A model generated the notes under the pieces. It was not told the DNA's origin. It did not search any database and worked only from the letters and a program-made list of their open reading frames with translations. Of a DNA stretch of 60,743 nucleotides, positions 10,197-50,675 are shown one piece after another. The position numbers were made by a program, and so were the translations under genes. Within the stretch, counting starts at the first letter, position 1; each line of letters opens with the position of its first letter. Location of the stretch: positions 1 through 60,743 of IMG/VR virus record IMGVR_UViG_3300037851_000839. One strand, 5' to 3'. The stretch comes from a virus. Lineage: Duplodnaviria; Caudoviricetes.

Positions 10197-11141
10197 TCAG
10201 GCGGCCTTCGACTCGAACCGGCGAGCCATCTTCTCGGTGAAGGCTGCCGCGAGGGACCACTCCCTCATCTGCCCAGCGATTCCATCGTGGAGACGGGCCA
10301 GGCACTTCGCGCACCCGTCCTCTGCCACTGCCACTGCATCGTCCACGATGGAGATCATGCCGTCCAGGTCTTCTGCGAACCCGGAGGCGAACTCGACGAA
10401 GTCCGCGGTCGTCTCCGCATCGTCTGCGGATCCACGAACCCTGTACCCCTCGTTCACCTGCCTGGCGAGCAAGGTCTGCTCACGCAGGCGCCCGAGGAAG
10501 GAGCGAAGCTCCCCCATCGCGCGAACGACCGACTCCCTGCGACCCTCGGCCACCGACTCGTCGATGGCGTCGCCGGTGATGTTCTCGAACTGCGGCTTCG
10601 GGTAGACCAGCCTGAGTGCCTCGGCGCCGAGGAACTTGCGGATCTCCGCCTCCCTCTCCGAGACCATCTTGGCCCAGTCGGCATCGGCGAACCGGTCGCG
10701 GTTCTCCAGGAACACGGTCTCCACGGCCTCGGCCGTCATCGGCACGCCGCCGGTGGCGAGGTCGAGCAGCTCCCTGAGCTTCTCCTCCGCCGACTCGGAG
10801 TTGCACTCCAGGAGGTCGGAGACCGCCTCCTCGTACTTCTTGCGGATGGCGGACTGGCGGACCTCGCCCTCGATCACGGGAACATCGATCTGCCTCACGT
10901 GGGTGAGGGTCACGCCGTCCTCGCCTTCGGTCCACTCGCACCGGAAGAACTCGCCATCGGTGTTCGCGACGATGGCGTGGTCGGTGTAGGTGCCGATCAC
11001 GCGAACCGACGCCTCATCCTCCGCCCCGAACAGCTCGGAGTGGTTCGCGACGGCCTCCTCGACCGCGCCCATGCGGACCTCGAACGAGCCCGCCAGGAGC
11101 TTCGCCAGGAAGTCGCCGTCCACCAGCTTCTCAGAGGCCAT
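10197..11141 (-). CDS. Acidic hypothetical head-assembly protein
   Basis: GGAGG SD; between portal and core genes. Confidence 0.55.
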   Translation of the reverse strand: MASEKLVDGDFLAKLLAGSFEVRMGAVEEAVANHSELFGAEDEASVRVIGTYTDHAIVANTDGEFFRCEWTEGEDGVTLTHVRQIDVPVIEGEVRQSAIRKKYEEAVSDLLECNSESAEEKLRELLDLATGGVPMTAEAVETVFLENRDRFADADWAKMVSEREAEIRKFLGAEALRLVYPKPQFENITGDAIDESVAEGRRESVVRAMGELRSFLGRLREQTLLARQVNEGYRVRGSADDAETTADFVEFASGFAEDLDGMISIVDDAVAVAEDGCAKCLARLHDGIAGQMREWSLAAAFTEKMARRFESKAA

Positions 11142-46964: not shown

Positions 46965-47036
46965 TCGTCCAGGTGGGAGCCGAACCCACGGCCTCCTGCG
47001 TGTCGAGCAGGTGCTCTTCCGTTGAGCTACTGGACG
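46965..47036 (-). tRNA. tRNA-Val(GAC), C33
   Basis: Loop TCGACAC. Confidence 0.82.
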
Positions 47037-47043
47037 GTGGTGA

Positions 47044-47117
47044 TGGTGCAGGAGGGAGTCGAACCCTTCCTCAGTCCGTGTATCAGACGGACCAGAGCAA
47101 CCGGCTACTTCCGCACC
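47044..47117 (-). tRNA. tRNA-Ile(GAT), irregular D arm
   Basis: Loop CTGATAC. Confidence 0.7.
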
Positions 47118-47122
47118 TTGGT

Positions 47123-47195
47123 GTGGTCGAGCGGAGTCGAACCGCCTTGCACCCGGGTCACAACCGAGCCCCTCCACCACTTCGGGATCGACCAC
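47123..47195 (-). tRNA. tRNA-His(GTG)
   Basis: G-1:C73 pair, loop TTGTGAC. Confidence 0.82.
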
Positions 47196-47207
47196 CATGT
47201 GAAAGAT

Positions 47208-47344
47208 GGGAGACAAGAGATGCTAGGACGTGTTTTTCCCGCTCTACCAACTGAGCTACCACCCCATGAGAAGTGGGGCGGGCTGGACTCGAACCAGCGA
47301 CCAGGGGCTTATGTGGCCATGTAGTCCTTCGCGAACATTCTCCC
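47208..47344 (-). ncRNA. yrlA: YrlA-type Y RNA
   Basis: 5' GGGAGAATG...GGACTACAT, T arm GCTGGTTCGAGTCCAGC, loop-closed acceptor stem, D arm TAGCTCAGTTGGTAGAGC, 3' GTCC...CTTGTCTCCC; Ro60 gene in the same array. Confidence 0.85.
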
Positions 47345-47347
47345 AAG

Positions 47348-47420
47348 CGTCCTCGGCAGGACTCGAACCTGCGACCACCCGCTTAGGAAGCGGATGCTCT
47401 ATCCACTGAGCTACGAGGAC
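47348..47420 (-). tRNA. tRNA-Arg(CCT)
   Basis: Loop TTCCTAA. Confidence 0.92.
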
Positions 47421-47421
47421 A

Positions 47422-47544
47422 TGGTGGAGGCTGACCGGTCGGGGATCCCGGTCTTTGGTCGAAGTTACGGTTCGATTGTGATGTAGTCCCTGCCCAGCAT
47501 TCGCTTGCGCGACAAGTTCGGGTGGACAGCCCTATCGAGCCTCC
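47422..47544 (-). ncRNA. Circularly permuted Y-RNA-like RNA with acceptor stem and ACCA end
   Basis: GGAGGCT/AGCCTCC-ACCA; GTCC..CTTGTCGC-GCAA-GCGAATG..GGACTACAT. Confidence 0.7.
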
Positions 47545-47559
47545 GTATGAGGAAAGAAA

Positions 47560-47634
47560 CGTCCCGTGGGGGATTTGAACCCACCGTCGCCCGAGTGAGA
47601 GTCGAGCATCCTTGGCCATCTAGACGAACGGGAC
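47560..47634 (-). tRNA. tRNA-Glu(CTC)
   Basis: Loop CTCTCAC. Confidence 0.88.
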
Positions 47635-47721
47635 ATTGAGTGAGACGAGGGACGCAGTGACAGACCTGACCAGCCGGAGCTGGACTCGCCCGGTTACCCA
47701 GACCGTGACCTATGGAACCAG

Positions 47722-47795
47722 CTCCAGGGGAGGGACTCGAACCCCCAACATCCCGTTGAACAGACGGGCGTCGCTCCATTTGACTCTTCCCTGGA
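47722..47795 (-). tRNA. tRNA-Asn(GTT), C37
   Basis: TCC acceptor start, G73, loop CTGTTCA. Confidence 0.8.
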
Positions 47796-47799
47796 ATAC

Positions 47800-47863
47800 G
47801 GGCGACGAGAGATCGCGAGAGGGTTGATCTGTACAAGAGATGTACTCCCGCTGGCATTCGCCC
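47800..47863 (-). ncRNA. Minimal Y-RNA-like hairpin (64 nt)
   Basis: GGGCGAATG...TACAT / ATCTCTCGTCGCCC mirrors the YrlA terminal stem. Confidence 0.7.
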
Positions 47864-47865
47864 TA

Positions 47866-47931
47866 CGATGGGGGTGGGAGTTGAACCCACGCACTTCGGT
47901 CTAAACAGACCGAACTGCACCCTGACCCATC
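47866..47931 (-). pseudogene. Degenerate tRNA-like copy overlapping HNH 3' end
   Basis: T arm GTGGG-TTCAACT-CCCAC, 3' CCCCATCG identical to the tRNA at 48288; 8-nt loop CTGTTTAG; no D arm. Confidence 0.6.
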
Positions 47932-48266
47932 TCCTCGTGAATCTCCCGGTGACAGTTCGCGCACACGAGAATGCACTTAGCTGCTTCGGCTCGCATGGTT
48001 GCGATGCCGTTCGTGTTGCCTGAACCGAGTACCACCGGGTCTTTCTGACTCGGATCCTTATGGTGGAACTCCAGAGCCGCCTTGCACTTGGAGTACCCGC
48101 ACCGAGAACAGGCTCCGCCGTGCTCCGCAACAAGTATCTCCCTCACCCGCCTTCGGCGACCCGTGACGGAATCGATCTGACACCGCTTGCACCGCACTCG
48201 GTGCTTGAAGACGTAGTAGTCGCACTCGCCATGCTTCGGACAGAACCTTCGTACCATTTGCGGCAT
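47901..48266 (-). CDS. Small HNH endonuclease
   Basis: CPKHG, CKRC, GGACSRCGY....ALEFHH.DP..K, KCILVCANCHREIH. Confidence 0.88.
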   Translation of the reverse strand: MPQMVRRFCPKHGECDYYVFKHRVRCKRCQIDSVTGRRRRVREILVAEHGGACSRCGYSKCKAALEFHHKDPSQKDPVVLGSGNTNGIATMRAEAAKCILVCANCHREIHEEMGQGAVRSV

Positions 48267-48287
48267 AACTTCCTAAGTTCTACCACA

Positions 48288-48360
48288 CGATGGGGGAGGG
48301 AGTCGAACCCCCGACCAACAGGCTAACAGTCTGCCGCTCTAACCACTGAGCTACCCCACC
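48288..48360 (-). tRNA. tRNA-Asn(GTT), second copy with different acceptor
   Basis: GGTGGGG/CCCCATC, loop CTGTTAG, G73. Confidence 0.8.
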
Positions 48361-48457
48361 ATCTGGTCGGGCCCTCGCACGCGCGCGCCCGTATGGGCAC
48401 GACCGCGCGTGCGAGTCCCTTCCCGCGGCCCCCGTGGGGACCGCCTGAATGGCTTCC

Positions 48458-48476
48458 TATTCAGTTGTCAGAGAGC
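48458..48476 (-). promoter_or_regulatory. boxA-like antitermination sequence
   Basis: GCTCTCTGACAACTGAATA resembles rrn boxA GCTCTTTAACAA. Confidence 0.55.
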
Positions 48477-48496
48477 TTCGGTGGGTGACCACCTAG

Positions 48497-48567
48497 TTCC
48501 AGGCCAGGGACTCGAACCCCGCTTCACGGTTCCAGAGACCGTTGTCCTGCCACTAGACGAGCCTGGA
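48497..48567 (-). tRNA. tRNA-Gln(CTG)
   Basis: Loop CTCTGGA. Confidence 0.88.
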
Positions 48568-48641
48568 TGCGTCGGGAGGGGATCGAACCCTCGAATCTCC
48601 CGGGTAAGAGCCGGGTGCTGTTCCTATCTAGCTTCCGACGC
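48568..48641 (-). tRNA. tRNA-Lys(CTT)
   Basis: Loop CTCTTAC. Confidence 0.82.
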
Positions 48642-48644
48642 GAG

Positions 48645-48667
48645 TGGGGCCGGAGGGGGTTGAACCC
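48645..48667 (-). pseudogene. 3' fragment of split tRNA-Lys(TTT)
   Basis: GGGTTCAACCCCCTCCGGCCCCA; acceptor strand complements GGGGTCG at 49203-49209. Confidence 0.8.
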
Positions 48668-48669
48668 AG

Positions 48670-48740
48670 TGGGACGCCTGAGAATCGAACTCAGCCCGAC
48701 CGGGTAAAAACCGGCTGCTCCGCCTTGGAGCTAACGTCCC
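48670..48740 (-). tRNA. tRNA-Lys(TTT) carried inside the insertion
   Basis: GGGACGT/GCGTCCC, loop TTTTTAC, T arm CTGAG-TTCGATT-CTCAG. Confidence 0.85.
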
Positions 48741-49146
48741 GCCACGATCCCTTGTGGGTGCGCCTCCGATGGCAGTTGGCACACACCACGTCGCACTTCT
48801 CGATCTCGACTCGGATGGTCTCCAGGCCGTAGCCGTCCGACACCATCCTGCTCACCGCCTTCCTCTTGGTTCCTCGAACATGATCGAACTCCAGAACCAG
48901 AACATCGCCCTCTCCGCAGTCCTTGCACACCTTCCCGGTCAACAGCTCCAGGAGCATCTCCTTTGCCGCGGCCCTCGATCGTGCCTGACCAGCACGGATT
49001 CGAGACCTGTTCTTCCGGTAGAACTCCTGCGACTTCCTTCTGTTGCACTCTCGGCAGTAGGACTGCTTGCCGCTCTTCCTCTCTGGTCTGTCTGCGAACA
49101 ACTCCAACGGCAGCTCTCTGGAACACCCGGGGCACTTCTTGGTCAT
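48691..49146 (-). CDS. HNH endonuclease (inserted in tRNA-Lys)
   Basis: KKCPGC....L..F......G.QSYCREC, CKDCG.....LEFDHVRG.K, EIEKCDVVCANCHRRRT. Confidence 0.9.
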   Translation of the reverse strand: MTKKCPGCSRELPLELFADRPERKSGKQSYCRECNRRKSQEFYRKNRSRIRAGQARSRAAAKEMLLELLTGKVCKDCGEGDVLVLEFDHVRGTKRKAVSRMVSDGYGLETIRVEIEKCDVVCANCHRRRTHKGSWRDVSSKAEQPVFTRSG

Positions 49147-49161
49147 GCCGGTAATGTACCA

Positions 49162-49209
49162 TCGATCCGCGGGTAAAAGCCGGCTGTTCTGCCGTTGAAC
49201 TACGACCCC
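49162..49209 (-). pseudogene. 5' fragment of split tRNA-Lys(TTT)
   Basis: GGGGTCG-TA-GTTC AACGGCA GAAC-A-GCCGG CTTTTAC CCGC GGATC GA. Confidence 0.8.
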
Positions 49210-49246
49210 AAGACGGGGTCTCGTTTCTCCTTGGTGGTCATCGTCA

Positions 49247-49327
49247 TGGAGCTGGAAGGAATCGAACCTTCCGTCCCCGAAGGGAACCGGGTTACAGCCG
49301 GCCTGCGGCCCCAGCCGCGTCAGCTCC
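49247..49327 (-). tRNA. tRNA-Tyr(GTA)
   Basis: Loop CTGTAAC, long variable arm. Confidence 0.82.
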
Positions 49328-49347
49328 GTTGTGCAGGCCCATGAACG

Positions 49348-49381
49348 CCGAAGGCCGCCTCGGTTTCCCGGGCGGCCTTCG
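49348..49381 (-). terminator. Strong GC hairpin ahead of first tRNA (attenuator-like)
   Basis: GAAGGCCGCC-CGG-GAAA-CCG-A-GGCGGCCTTC; lacks a clear U tract. Confidence 0.45.
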
Positions 49382-49408
49382 CTTCACGATCCCTGGTTGG
49401 GATGAAAG

Positions 49409-49555
49409 CTAGGTCGCCCCGGAGGTACCCTCCTGGTGGCGGATGGCGTTGACGAAGAGCGAATCCAGGCACCCTTCGGCCAAGGCACACCACACCGTCG
49501 CCGGCATGGATGCCGGATACGTCGAGGTGCTGGGCTTGAGGGTTCTGGAAGACAT
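49409..49555 (-). CDS. Candidate leader peptide of the tRNA array (48 aa)
   Basis: ATG at 49555 after TTGACC-N17-TACACC promoter-like sequence; stop shortly before hairpin. Confidence 0.4.
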   Translation of the reverse strand: MSSRTLKPSTSTYPASMPATVWCALAEGCLDSLFVNAIRHQEGTSGAT

Positions 49556-49724
49556 GATCTCGCTCTTGGGTCTCCGTGGTGTACTTCTGGTCAAACGAGA
49601 GGTCAAGAAGAAAAAGCTAAGCCGCGTTCTTTTTTCTTCCGGAGCCTCCGGCGGGGCACCCCTCGCGATGGAAGGAGGGGGGGTGGGACGCTCAGGGTAT
49701 CCCGCCGGAGGTCTCCGGGAGAAC

Positions 49725-50675
49725 CTACTCGGCCGCCCCCGGCTCGTCACCGCGAAGCAGGGCCACCAGGCCCTTGACCTTGGTGGGGGGCGCGTCGCCG
49801 ATCGCGATGCGGAGGCCGAGGATGAGGTCCTCGGAGAGGACGCCCTTGCCGTTCTCGATGGCCTTCTTGATGGCCCGCTTCGACGGAGCGACCACCGGAG
49901 CGTCGGCGCCGGCCTTCTGACCCTTGGACCCGCTGCCGTTCGCCTTCGATCCCTTCGCGATGACGGTCGCCGCCTTGGCGCCGCCACCCTCCGTGGCGAG
50001 CTTCTGGAGAGCCTCCTTCATCTCGTCCTTCGGCATCCCGGCGAGCTTGACGACCGCGCTCGCCGACACGGAGCCGGTCTCGACCGCGTCCTGGGCGAAC
50101 GACGGCATGTCGAGCAGCTTCACCCACTCGTTGATGGTCTGCTCCGACCGTCCGAAGAGCCGCGCGACCGTCTCGACCGTGTCGCCGGTGCTCAGGAGGT
50201 ACTGCGCCTTCTGCGCGCGGTTGAGGATCGAGTCCTCGGTCCGGTGCTCGTTGAGCACGATGCCGAGGGCACGGTCGATCTTCTCGATGTTCGCGTTGGC
50301 GCGGCGCGCGATGCACGGCACCGGCTTGCCCTCGCGGCCCTCCTTCTTGAGAAGCCGGTCGGCGATGCGCTGCTTGAGCACGCGCCCGCGCCCATCGACG
50401 ACGATGTAGAGGTCCTTGCCATCGACCTCCACGACCTCGATCAGGACCGGCTGCTGGACGCCGTACTCCTTCATGGAGAGGACGTGCGGATGGTCGTCGG
50501 GGATCCCCTGGTGGCCACCCTGATCGAACGGCAGGTGGACGCGCTTGTCGTAGAGCCGATGCTCGGACATCGACTTGTGCGGCGTGTCGATGCCGATGAC
50601 GGTGAGCATGTGCGCGGGCACCGCGAACCCGTTCGTGCGCGAGACACCCTTGCCTTCGATGAGCTGGCCACCCAT
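49725..50675 (-). CDS. ParB/Srx-like N-terminal domain protein with HTH
   Basis: SMKEYGVQQPV...IVVDGRGR, NEHR, VARLFGRSEQTINEWVKLL. Confidence 0.8.
   Translation of the reverse strand: MGGQLIEGKGVSRTNGFAVPAHMLTVIGIDTPHKSMSEHRLYDKRVHLPFDQGGHQGIPDDHPHVLSMKEYGVQQPVLIEVVEVDGKDLYIVVDGRGRVLKQRIADRLLKKEGREGKPVPCIARRANANIEKIDRALGIVLNEHRTEDSILNRAQKAQYLLSTGDTVETVARLFGRSEQTINEWVKLLDMPSFAQDAVETGSVSASAVVKLAGMPKDEMKEALQKLATEGGGAKAATVIAKGSKANGSGSKGQKAGADAPVVAPSKRAIKKAIENGKGVLSEDLILGLRIAIGDAPPTKVKGLVALLRGDEPGAAE

What the first reader, a model, noticed from the sequence alone, without database searches (positions are those of the whole stretch)
48645..49209. tRNA-Lys(UUU) split by an HNH cassette that brings its own replacement tRNA-Lys(UUU)
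Seen: the 5' fragment (49162-49209, GGGGTCG acceptor, D arm, CTTTTAC loop, GGATC, GA) and the 3' fragment (48645-48667, GGGTTCAACCCCCTC-CGGCCCC-A) join into one cloverleaf with T stem GAGGG/CCCTC, apart from one missing G in the anticodon stem. The 494-nt insert holds an extended -10-like TGGTACATT, an HNH ORF and a complete, sequence-divergent tRNA with the same TTT anticodon that overlaps the HNH C-terminal codons. Inference: a selfish 'disrupt and replace' homing cassette in which nuclease and resistant tRNA allele are physically inseparable. tRNA-Lys(UUU) is also the established target of the PrrC anticodon nuclease.
Basis: partly seen in the sequence, partly recalled or inferred. Interest (0 to 1): 0.85.

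Follow-up and report, generated by a model that had tools for sequence, protein, structure and literature searches.

The report
Nuclease cassette splits, replaces phage tRNA-Lys
In this uncultured high-GC phage a selfish DNA-cutting-enzyme gene that travels with its own lysine tRNA gene sits inside the phage's original lysine tRNA gene and has broken it, while a sister phage still has that gene whole, so it looks like a natural "cut and bring a spare" mobile element.

Summary
On the minus strand a resident tRNA-Lys(UUU) gene is cut at the variable-loop/T-stem boundary by about 492 nt (48668-49159). The insert holds an intact HNH endonuclease ORF (49146-48691) and a complete tRNA-Lys(UUU) of another lineage (48740-48669), overlapping by 50 nt. 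A related IMG/VR contig (L005) has the uninterrupted gene between the same neighbours: its first 40 nt and 21 of its last 23 nt match the window's fragments. A more distant related array (L015) also has it whole, so the split is derived.

The design recurs in this HNH family (phrog_2255):
- 18 of 80 IMG/VR relatives end their ORF inside a downstream tRNA.
- L067/L068 nest a tRNA-Arg(ACG) plus HNH inside a broken tRNA-Arg(ACG).
- L015 carries a homologous cassette whose tRNA (82% identical) has the CUU anticodon and follows a tRNA-Lys(CUU)-like 5' fragment.

Best reading: a SegB-like homing element that carries a spare tRNA in place of an intron. Cleavage, homing and resistance of the spare are untested. 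AAA codons are rare, and one low-depth contig from another sample has lost the cassette, so "rescue" may matter little.

Earlier notes of this scan report the same layout on other DNA, tRNA-Lys(UUU) included. Six paper searches found no description.

The parts
49160..49209 (-). 5' fragment of the resident tRNA-Lys(UUU) gene: acceptor strand, D arm, anticodon arm and variable region. It is dead.
   Evidence: The first 40 nt are identical to the intact tRNA-Lys(ttt) of L005. After that come a 2-nt insertion and 1 substitution.
48668..49159 (-). The inserted cassette, about 492 nt (+-2). It has no terminal inverted repeats and no target-site duplication.
   Evidence: Absent from L005 at the same place. 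Repeat scan of 48600-49260.
49153..49161 (-). TGGTACATT, a -10-like string. Its TACATT ends 6 nt before the ATG, so it could be a promoter for a leaderless HNH mRNA. This is inferred only.
   Evidence: Read from the sequence. Similar TA-rich hexamers lie 6-11 nt before the ATG in L015, L017, L022 and L026. The sigma-70 consensus scan found 0 sites.
48691..49146 (-). HNH endonuclease ORF, 151 aa: an N-terminal CxxC...CxxC zinc ribbon, a helical middle, and a C-terminal HNH core (DH...N...CANCH). The last 16 codons and the stop are read from the tRNA.
   Evidence: ORF list. phrog_2255, E 2.5e-34. Pfam HNH 14.2 bits, below its cut-off of 21.4. All 26 invariant columns of a 20-sequence family alignment are kept. 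AlphaFold2 mean pLDDT 90.9.
48669..48740 (-). Intact cassette-borne tRNA-Lys(UUU). It is the only tRNA-Lys(UUU) in the window and belongs to a different lineage from the broken one.
   Evidence: ARAGORN. Rfam tRNA 47 bits. 77% identical to the L005 resident tRNA and 82% to the HNH-linked tRNA-Lys(ctt) of L015.
48645..48667 (-). 3' fragment of the resident tRNA-Lys(UUU) gene: most of the T arm, the acceptor 3' strand and the discriminator.
   Evidence: 21 of 23 nt identical to L005. Pairs 7 of 7 with the 5' fragment's acceptor strand.
48568..48641 (-). Resident tRNA-Lys(CUU), intact. It is the right-hand neighbour and a likely homology arm. Its T arm is identical to that of the L005 empty allele.
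   Evidence: ARAGORN. 69 of 74 nt identical to L005. Sequences read.
49247..49327 (-). tRNA-Tyr(GUA), the left-hand neighbour and first gene of the array.
   Evidence: ARAGORN. Same neighbour in L005. 67 of 83 nt identical.

Best explanation
A mobile cassette made of an HNH homing-endonuclease gene fused end-to-start with a tRNA-Lys(UUU) gene has entered the phage's resident tRNA-Lys(UUU) gene. The entry point is the boundary between variable loop and T stem.

Shown:
- The resident gene is split, and it is whole in relatives.
- The nuclease ORF and the spare tRNA are intact.
- The same nuclease family is welded to downstream tRNAs in many phages.
- Nested 'broken tRNA around nuclease plus same-anticodon tRNA' recurs.

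Inferred:
- During co-infection the HNH cuts cassette-free tRNA-Lys(UUU) genes near the T arm, as T4 SegB does at the T-psi-C motif.
- Recombinational repair copies the cassette from the carrier, using the tRNA halves and the neighbouring tRNA genes as homology arms.
- The carrier is immune because its site is broken. The spare tRNA escapes because its T stem and variable loop differ.
- The spare keeps the phage's tRNA set complete, so the element can sit inside a gene without an intron.
- Because the ORF stops 50 nt inside the tRNA, RNase P processing would cut the mRNA before its stop codon and keep nuclease levels low. The same was proposed for segB and tRNA-Arg.
For: Empty allele:
- L005 has the uninterrupted gene between the same neighbours.
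- The more distant related array L015 also has the resident type whole, 82% identical to L005's. This gives the event its direction.

Nuclease integrity: phrog_2255 at E 2.5e-34, all invariant positions kept, pLDDT 90.9.

Spare tRNA: Rfam 47 bits.

Sister cassette: the L015 HNH is 49% identical. Its overlapping tRNA-Lys(ctt) is the closest of the 43 other sequences compared with the window's spare, at 82%. It follows a tRNA-Lys(ctt)-like 5' fragment that scores above all 200 shuffles.

Recurrence among 80 IMG/VR relatives:
- 48 lie with same-strand tRNAs.
- 18 stop inside the next tRNA, 7 of them with the stop at tRNA positions 8-10.
- 7 more lie within 15 nt of the next tRNA.
- tRNA-Lys is the nearest upstream tRNA in 13 of 36 loci, against 32 of 238 tRNAs overall.

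Nested cases at the same variable-loop/T-stem position: L067/L068 (Arg ACG, 7/7 acceptor) and a decayed L031 (Lys UUU).

Precedent:
- SegB recognises the T-psi-C motif, cuts at the 3' ends of tRNA genes, and spreads itself and flanking tRNA genes (PMC2330249, abstract and first part of the Discussion read).
- segB associates with tRNAs and drives their amplification (PMC13096335, abstract and sections 9 and 10 read).
Against: - No enzymology and no cross data exist for this element.
- No donor was found. No close HNH relative turned up among 945 hits: the full-length ones are at most about 50% identical, apart from an identical 88-aa piece. Exact-word scans for the spare tRNA found nothing in viral or metagenome contigs.
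- The resident tRNA-Lys(CUU) next door has the same 17-nt T arm as the empty allele yet is intact. A T-arm-only target is therefore not enough.
- The two junctions show no homology, so the first insertion must have been illegitimate.
- AAA is 12 of 782 Lys codons in 36 long ORFs. One X2 contig (305 nt, depth 3.4) has lost the 5' fragment, the HNH and most of the spare tRNA. The spare may therefore not be needed for translation.
- The HNH tree is largely unresolved and does not place the window's HNH beside L015's.
- Clean nested splits are few. They appear in the window and L067/L068, with L031 decayed, out of 80 IMG/VR loci and 13 other targets scanned.
Confidence: 0.65

Rival explanations
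1. One-off illegitimate recombination. A piece of another phage's tRNA array (an HNH gene with the tRNA that follows it) was pasted into the tRNA-Lys(UUU) gene by chance. The nuclease has no special link to this site, and nothing drives spread.
For: - The junctions lack homology, a target duplication and inverted repeats.
- No second copy of this exact cassette was found anywhere.
- HNH genes are common passengers of phage tRNA arrays (PMC5966550, passages read).
- The array is in flux anyway. The window lacks 1.36 kb and five tRNAs that L005 has.
Against: - The same nested layout with a matching anticodon recurs in the same nuclease family (L067/L068 and L031), and at the same variable-loop/T-stem position.
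- The nearest relatives of this HNH cluster at tRNA-Lys genes (13 of 36 against 32 of 238).
- L015 has a homologous HNH-tRNA pair at the neighbouring Lys gene.
Confidence: 0.2
2. Adaptive tRNA swap. The variant tRNA-Lys(UUU) was selected because it escapes a host tRNA-Lys-directed defence (an anticodon nuclease such as PrrC, or PARIS-type nucleases). The nuclease is only the vehicle. This can be true together with the main explanation.
For: - AAA codons are too rare (12 of 782) for codon supply to explain why a tRNA-Lys(UUU) is kept.
- The spare differs from the resident at position 32 of the anticodon loop (T in place of C).
- Papers report phage tRNAs that evade tRNA-targeting defences (PMC10264068, PMC11464382; titles and starts of abstracts seen in the search listing only).
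Against: - No defence system, host or tRNA cleavage data are at hand.
- The X2 deletion variant lacks any tRNA-Lys(UUU) at this locus.
- The sister cassette in L015 carries the CUU isoacceptor.
Confidence: 0.1
3. The insert is an intron that is spliced out, so the split tRNA still works.
For: Earlier notes of this scan report relatives of such nucleases inside tRNA group I introns (e1-5681690, e1-5751428). These are unchecked.
Against: - No intron family matched 47000-50000 at E up to 1.
- No intron family reached its gathering score in 20 related loci.
- 478 of the 492 inserted bases are ORF or tRNA.
- The site is the T-stem boundary, not the anticodon loop.
- The 5' fragment has a damaged anticodon stem.
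Confidence: 0.03
4. Assembly chimera.
For: The record is a metagenome contig.
Against: - An independent 8468-nt Logan contig matches 48498-49500 with no differences, though probably from the same sample.
- A contig from another run carries the right-hand junction.
Confidence: 0.02

Closest known systems
T4/T6 SegB, a free-standing GIY-YIG homing endonuclease in the tRNA gene cluster ('intronless homing'; PMC2330249, PMC13096335)
   Same: - A nuclease gene lives in a phage tRNA array.
- It targets tRNA genes at the T-psi-C arm, next to where this insert sits.
- It spreads together with flanking tRNA genes.
- Its ORF ends at the start of the next tRNA, and processing is proposed to limit expression.
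- It shows presence/absence polymorphism among relatives.
   Different: - The nuclease fold is different (HNH, not GIY-YIG).
- SegB sits between genes, whereas this cassette sits inside a tRNA gene, leaves both halves as dead flanks and brings a same-anticodon spare.
- No activity data exist here.
HNH endonucleases of phage T5 (F-Tfl enzymes) and of mycobacteriophage tRNA arrays (mentioned in PMC2330249 and PMC5966550; Pope et al. 2014, cited there, not held)
   Same: HNH genes lie among phage tRNA genes and are said to shape the tRNA repertoire. The best cultured-phage matches to this HNH are such genes: MS810 at 46%, and ArcherS7 at 42% with an overlapping tRNA-Trp.
   Different: - None of the 9 cultured-phage loci scanned showed a clean split tRNA around the nuclease.
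- The passages I read do not describe a nested broken tRNA with a spare.
- I could not read Pope 2014, nor the supplements of any paper.
Homing endonucleases inside self-splicing group I introns of tRNA genes
   Same: A selfish nuclease occupies a tRNA gene while tRNA function is kept.
   Different: Function is kept by a second gene copy, not by splicing. No intron signature was found. The site is the T-stem boundary, not the anticodon loop.
Synthetic 'cleave and rescue' gene drives (recalled from memory, not read here)
   Same: The logic is the same: a nuclease destroys the resident copy of a gene and travels with a cleavage-resistant rescue copy.
   Different: Those drives are engineered Cas9 systems in animals and act on essential genes. 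Here the rescued gene is probably dispensable for codon supply, and the resemblance is one of design only.
Integrase-borne islands that insert in tRNA genes
   Same: They insert in the 3' part of a tRNA gene and keep tRNA function.
   Different: Islands restore the gene by duplicating its 3' end. Here there is no integrase, no att-type direct repeat, and a whole separate tRNA is supplied.

Membership tests
HNH (beta-beta-alpha-Me) endonucleases | Significant match to a family profile | tested here: met
   phrog_2255 'HNH endonuclease', E 2.5e-34, 119.6 bits. Pfam PF01844 gives only 14.2 bits, below its cut-off of 21.4.
HNH (beta-beta-alpha-Me) endonucleases | Catalytic D-H...N...H motif and the two CxxC zinc ligand pairs | tested here: met
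   D88, H89, N124, H126, C74/C77 and C122/C125 are invariant in the 20-sequence alignment A1 and present in the window's protein.
HNH (beta-beta-alpha-Me) endonucleases | Fold resembles solved HNH nucleases | tested here: inconclusive
   The model is confident (pLDDT 90.9). Foldseek gave 0 matches at E <= 0.001; HNH nucleases appear only at E 0.5-4.5. The best VIA-align Z is 4.3, to Hpy99I over 39 residues. No PDB match was found by sequence profile.
Homing endonuclease genes (mobile, SegB-like intronless homing) | Present in some genomes and absent from the same site in close relatives | tested here: met
   L005 lacks the insert between the same neighbours.
Homing endonuclease genes (mobile, SegB-like intronless homing) | Site-specific cleavage of the nuclease-free allele | not testable with these tools
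   Needs purified protein and DNA substrates.
Homing endonuclease genes (mobile, SegB-like intronless homing) | Nuclease-dependent, one-way transfer in mixed infection | not testable with these tools
   The phage is uncultured.
Homing endonuclease genes (mobile, SegB-like intronless homing) | Free-standing: lies between genes, not inside one | tested here: not met
   The cassette lies inside the tRNA-Lys(UUU) gene. It therefore works like a SegB-type element but is not a free-standing one in the strict sense.
tRNA (Rfam RF00005), cassette copy | Covariance-model score above the gathering threshold, with a cloverleaf and anticodon | tested here: met
   47 bits against a threshold of 29. ARAGORN calls tRNA-Lys(ttt).
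tRNA, broken resident copy | The joined halves make a tRNA | tested here: met
   ARAGORN draws a cloverleaf with a 7/7 acceptor stem but a defective anticodon arm. The fragments are identical or near-identical to the intact L005 gene. Rfam could not be run on a joined sequence.
Group I intron in a tRNA gene | Intron ribozyme signature; insertion in the anticodon loop | tested here: not met
   No intron family matched at E <= 1 in 47000-50000. The insertion is at the T-stem boundary.
Integrase-mediated tRNA-targeting island | Integrase gene and direct repeat of the tRNA 3' end at both ends | tested here: not met
   The insert holds only the HNH ORF and the tRNA. There is no flanking direct repeat.

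The most novel reading that the evidence does not exclude
Phages carry a family of natural 'cleave-and-rescue' elements: HNH nucleases welded to a cargo tRNA that invade the cognate tRNA gene at its T-arm boundary. The cargo's anticodon tracks the isoacceptor that is destroyed: UUU here, CUU in the sister cassette of L015, ACG in L067. Running the nuclease ORF into the tRNA ties nuclease dosage to tRNA processing. Such elements would be a main engine of turnover in phage tRNA arrays and a third way, beside introns and inteins, for a homing nuclease to live inside a gene.
Probability: 0.35. Interest if true: 0.8.

Novelty: new variant of a known kind. Interest (0 to 1): 0.64.

Why it matters
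Homing endonucleases are thought to survive inside genes only by hiding in self-splicing introns or inteins, or else by sitting between genes. A cassette that breaks a gene and supplies a spare copy is a third solution. It has the same logic as engineered cleave-and-rescue gene drives.

It would help explain three things: why phage tRNA arrays are littered with tRNA fragments and duplicate isoacceptors, why HNH genes are their commonest protein-coding passengers, and how anti-defence tRNAs move between phages.

The window offers the 'after' state and L005 the 'before' state of one such event. L015 offers a sister cassette on the neighbouring isoacceptor. A direct cleavage test is therefore easy to design.

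Tried and rejected
- Nucleotide searches of the phage collection with 48300-49500 found nothing (near mode) or only three short trivial matches (distant mode).
- Exact-word scans for the resident tRNA found only L005's contig in viral contigs and nothing in metagenome contigs.
- Scans for the spare tRNA found nothing in either collection, so no donor is known.
- A first virtual-excision scan without masking intact tRNAs was too permissive and was discarded.
- In the masked scans, the Mildred21 hit was an artefact: ARAGORN had not called and masked the annotated tRNA-Phe. The second window hit was a degenerate tRNA-Asn-like element, not a split gene.
- Among the 14 of 80 IMG/VR loci with any clean call, I inspected 8. 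I accept only L067/L068 and, weakly, L031 as nested spare-bearing cases. L023, L039 and L069 are an HNH beside tRNA-like pieces. L053 is a lone split tRNA without a spare. L021 and L064 were weak. L024, L035, L054, L055 and L063 had 1-8 joins and were not inspected further.
- The HNH tree (71 rows, quick method, 45 of 68 inner branches open) gave little. Only the three Trp-linked rows grouped, with support 63. All labels together needed 21 changes against a shuffled mean of 24.5, a value as low in 0 of 200 shuffles. Dropped before the tree: L027 and L039 (stop in the match), L048 (same contig as L005) and 8 identical duplicates.
- Structure comparison gave no significant match, and neither did a PDB sequence-profile search.
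- The consensus promoter scan found none.
- Runs X5 and X8 gave only short pieces of neighbouring tRNAs and say nothing about this locus. No contig with the empty allele was seen in X1, which proves nothing.
- Six paper searches gave no description of a tRNA gene split by a nuclease-plus-spare-tRNA cassette.
- Pope et al. 2014 (PMC3958112) is not held, and supplements are closed. Either could hold such a description, for example the gene-neighbourhood data of PMC13096335.
Full report
WHAT THE WINDOW IS. The window is a 60.7-kb fragment of an IMG/VR virus record. Its completeness is estimated at 32% and it is 65% G+C. Its minus strand carries an array of 30 tRNA genes between 37.5 and 49.3 kb, with one tRNA-Lys(ttt) and one tRNA-Lys(ctt). 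No cultured phage is close at the DNA level.

THE OBSERVATION. Read on the minus strand, the locus holds, in order:
- tRNA-Tyr (49327-49247);
- a 5' tRNA piece starting at 49209;
- an ATG at 49146 opening a 151-aa ORF that ends at 48691;
- an intact tRNA-Lys(ttt) at 48740-48669 (ARAGORN; Rfam 47 bits);
- one base;
- a 23-nt T-arm-plus-acceptor piece (48667-48645);
- three bases;
- tRNA-Lys(ctt) (48641-48568).

ARAGORN by itself is lenient. It accepted 26 of 90 joins of the 5' piece to the 3' ends of other tRNAs, though only 3 of 5000 joins to random 23-mers. I therefore relied on two sharper tests. First, the acceptor strand pairs 7 of 7 only with the true 3' piece; none of the 30 native tRNAs does. 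Second, a relative supplies the intact gene.

THE EMPTY ALLELE. A search of IMG/VR with the ParB-like protein upstream of the array found one relative, L005, with 88% protein identity. Its array starts tRNA-Tyr, tRNA-Lys(ttt), tRNA-Lys(ctt), tRNA-Gln(ctg), tRNA-Asn(gtt).
- Its tRNA-Lys(ttt) is identical to the window's 5' piece for 40 nt and to the 3' piece at 21 of 23 nt.
- The neighbours are alike: tRNA-Lys(ctt) 69 of 74, tRNA-Gln 72 of 72, tRNA-Asn 74 of 75.
- Guided by L005, the insert is 48668-49159 (492 nt, give or take 2). It sits where the variable loop meets the T stem.
- The only other differences lie beside it: a 2-nt insertion and one substitution on the left, and two T-loop substitutions on the right.
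- There are no terminal inverted repeats and no target duplication.

A more distant array with the same gene order, L015, also has the resident-type tRNA-Lys(ttt) whole, 82% identical to L005's. The whole gene is therefore ancestral and the split is an insertion.

An 8468-nt Logan contig from run X1 reproduces 48498-49500 exactly. It probably comes from the source sample, so it speaks against an assembler artefact rather than being independent biology.

THE NUCLEASE.
- The ORF matches phrog_2255 (HNH endonuclease) at E 2.5e-34. Pfam's HNH model reaches only 14.2 bits, below its cut-off.
- In an alignment with 19 relatives, 26 columns are invariant. They include an N-terminal CxxC...CxxC pair and the DH...N...CxNCH core, and all are kept.
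- The AlphaFold2 model is confident (pLDDT 90.9). Structure searches gave no significant match; solved HNH nucleases appear only among weak rows.
- Conserved residues run up to ...GSWRD. The tRNA begins inside the codons for R-D, and the remaining 14 residues plus the stop codon are simply the tRNA read in frame.

THE SAME DESIGN ELSEWHERE.
Cultured phages. tblastn found 240 phage records with relatives, none above 46% identity. In 6 of the 9 loci I fetched, a tRNA overlaps the ORF or starts within 10 nt of its stop: ArcherS7, MarvelLand, Mildred21, PegLeg, Finemlucis and Tribute. It does not in MS810, Paradiddles or Daredevil.

IMG/VR. A profile scan kept the best 80 of 426 relatives.
- 48 have same-strand tRNAs within 1.5 kb.
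- 18 ORFs stop inside the next tRNA.
- 7 of those stop exactly at tRNA positions 8-10 (five TAG, one TAA, one TGA), so the conserved start of the D arm supplies the stop.
- 7 more end within 15 nt.
- After removing duplicates, tRNA-Lys is the nearest upstream tRNA in 13 of 36 loci, against 32 of 238 tRNAs overall. The binomial p is 5e-4, but relatedness is not corrected for.

Virtual-excision scan. A masked scan removes candidate inserts in silico and asks ARAGORN for a tRNA across the joint that uses no intact tRNA.
- It recovered the window's split: 119 joins, all with the same outer ends.
- It recovered no true split in the 12 other targets.
- In the 80 IMG/VR loci it flagged 14.
- On inspection, L067 and L068 (the same protein) are a clean second case: a tRNA-Arg(acg) 5' piece, then an intact tRNA-Arg(acg), the HNH, and a T-arm-plus-acceptor piece. 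The joined halves have a 7/7 acceptor stem, and the break is again between variable region and T stem.
- L031 is a decayed tRNA-Lys(ttt) example.
- L053 is a lone tRNA split by an HNH without a spare.
- The other flagged loci are not clean.

A SISTER CASSETTE ON THE NEIGHBOURING ISOACCEPTOR. L015 reads: resident tRNA-Lys(ttt), about 110 nt, HNH (49% identical to the window's), tRNA-Lys(ctt) overlapping the stop by 10 nt, tRNA-Gln, tRNA-Asn.
- Its HNH-linked tRNA is the closest of the 43 other sequences compared with the window's spare, at 82%. The next is the L005 resident gene at 77%.
- The 110 nt hold a tRNA-Lys(ctt)-like 5' fragment that breaks off in the anticodon loop. It scores above all 200 shuffles against the L005 and L015 tRNA-Lys(ctt) genes.
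- Related cassettes thus sit on adjacent Lys genes in related arrays, and each carries the anticodon of the gene it displaces.
- The fragment is most similar to L015's own cassette tRNA, so a partial duplication is not excluded.
- The protein tree does not resolve whether the two nucleases are sisters.

THE ARRAY AROUND IT.
- L005 has a third member of the family whose ORF overlaps tRNA-Trp and is preceded by a tRNA-Trp 5' fragment.
- The window keeps part of that fragment but lacks the next 1.36 kb, which in L005 holds this HNH and tRNA-Trp, Asp, Phe, Pro(tgg) and Ala(cgc).
- Both phages have a 121-aa HNH after tRNA-Asn whose stop lies in the loop of a degenerate tRNA-Asn-like copy.
- The array is therefore being remodelled repeatedly by such cassettes.

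HOW IT MOST LIKELY WORKS. The structure is shown; the mechanism is inferred by analogy.
- T4 SegB is a GIY-YIG nuclease encoded in the tRNA cluster. It recognises the T-psi-C motif, cuts at the 3' ends of tRNA genes in phages that lack it, and is inherited with the surrounding tRNA genes. Its ORF abuts tRNA-Arg, so tRNA maturation may disable its mRNA (PMC2330249, abstract and first part of the Discussion).
- segB associates with tRNAs across phages and drives their amplification (PMC13096335, abstract and sections 9 and 10).
- The present insert sits at the 5' edge of the T arm, as do those of L067 and L031. This fits a nuclease that reads that region.
- After one illegitimate insertion, the tRNA halves and neighbouring genes would serve as homology arms for ordinary homing.

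AGAINST A SIMPLE VERSION.
- The neighbouring tRNA-Lys(ctt) has the same 17-nt T arm as the empty allele and is intact, so recognition must reach beyond the T arm or expression must be tightly limited.
- The need for 'rescue' is doubtful. AAA is 12 of 782 Lys codons.
- A 305-nt contig from run X2 (depth 3.4, a different study) joins 48681 to 49236. It has lost the 5' fragment, the nuclease and most of the spare, while keeping the right-hand junction. If real, this shows loss of the element, as expected in the life cycle of homing genes, and dispensability of tRNA-Lys(UUU).
- The tRNA may be kept for counter-defence rather than codon supply. I could not test this.

KNOWN OR NEW. HNH genes in phage tRNA arrays are well known (PMC5966550, passages read; it cites Pope 2014, which I could not read). 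SegB supplies the mechanism. I found no paper that describes a tRNA gene broken by a nuclease that brings a same-anticodon spare. Closed supplements and unheld papers may hold one.

This scan has noted the layout before on other DNA, for Pro, Arg, Met, Leu, Thr, Gln, Tyr, Asn and three times for Lys(UUU). Those are unchecked AI notes and I do not count them as support.

This locus adds four things: a clean before/after pair; the T-stem-boundary position (the notes shown that name a site give the anticodon); a sister cassette with the other Lys anticodon; and a probable deletion derivative.

I class it as a new variant of a known kind.

Noticed in passing
L005:10459-11025; window 47690-47730 (-): L005 has a same-family HNH (10515-10970). 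A tRNA-Trp 5' fragment precedes it and it overlaps an intact tRNA-Trp by 14 nt. No 3' fragment was found. The window keeps part of the 5' fragment but lacks the next 1.36 kb, which in L005 holds this HNH and tRNA-Trp, Asp, Phe, Pro(tgg) and Ala(cgc).
   Followed up: partly
window 47866-48361 (-); L005:9815-10310: A 121-aa HNH (phrog_2255) lies between an intact tRNA-Asn(gtt) and a degenerate tRNA-Asn-like copy with the same 3' end. The HNH stop TAG lies in that copy's 8-nt loop (Rfam tRNA 20 bits). A further tRNA-like element with a GTT loop lies at 47724-47793 (Rfam 31 bits; ARAGORN does not call it).
   Followed up: partly
L067:1340-1941 (and the identical L068): This is a clean nested case with the order reversed: tRNA-Arg(acg) 5' fragment, intact tRNA-Arg(acg), HNH, then a T-arm-plus-acceptor fragment. 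The HNH stop TAG lies in the T stem of that fragment.
   Followed up: partly
L053:1371-2023: A lone tRNA, with no other tRNA within 1.5 kb, is split near its anticodon arm by an HNH of this family without any spare tRNA. Its acceptor strands pair perfectly. No intron family reached its gathering score.
   Followed up: partly
18 of the loci L015-L094 (list): HNH ORFs of this family have no stop of their own and run into the next tRNA. In 7 loci the stop codon is tRNA positions 8-10, the conserved T8-A9-G10 in five of them.
   Followed up: partly
window 48682-49235: One 305-nt, depth-3.4 contig of run X2 (another study) joins 48681 to 49236. This 554-nt deletion removes the 5' fragment, the HNH and most of the spare tRNA but keeps the right-hand junction. 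On its long side the contig differs from the window at 4 letters and 2 gaps over about 238 nt.
   Followed up: no
window 47204-47345, 47330-47345, 47490-47510, 47845-47865 (-); several in L005:10310-11830: A repeated intergenic motif, GAATGC, about 8-10 nt, then GACTACAT, follows many tRNAs. Orphan T-arm-plus-acceptor mini-helices are scattered in the array. Rfam gives a sub-threshold YrlA (Y RNA-like) match at 47204-47345 (42 bits against 69).
   Followed up: no
L016, L059 (and L031): Two divergent intact tRNA-Lys(ttt) genes flank the HNH, one upstream and one overlapping or abutting its stop. It looks as if the same kind of cassette landed just after the resident gene instead of inside it.
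   Followed up: no
L011 (Mycobacterium phage Finemlucis) 1198-1872: The annotated 675-nt 'HNH endonuclease' CDS reads through a tRNA-Trp that ARAGORN calls at 1789-1862 and that the record does not annotate.
   Followed up: no
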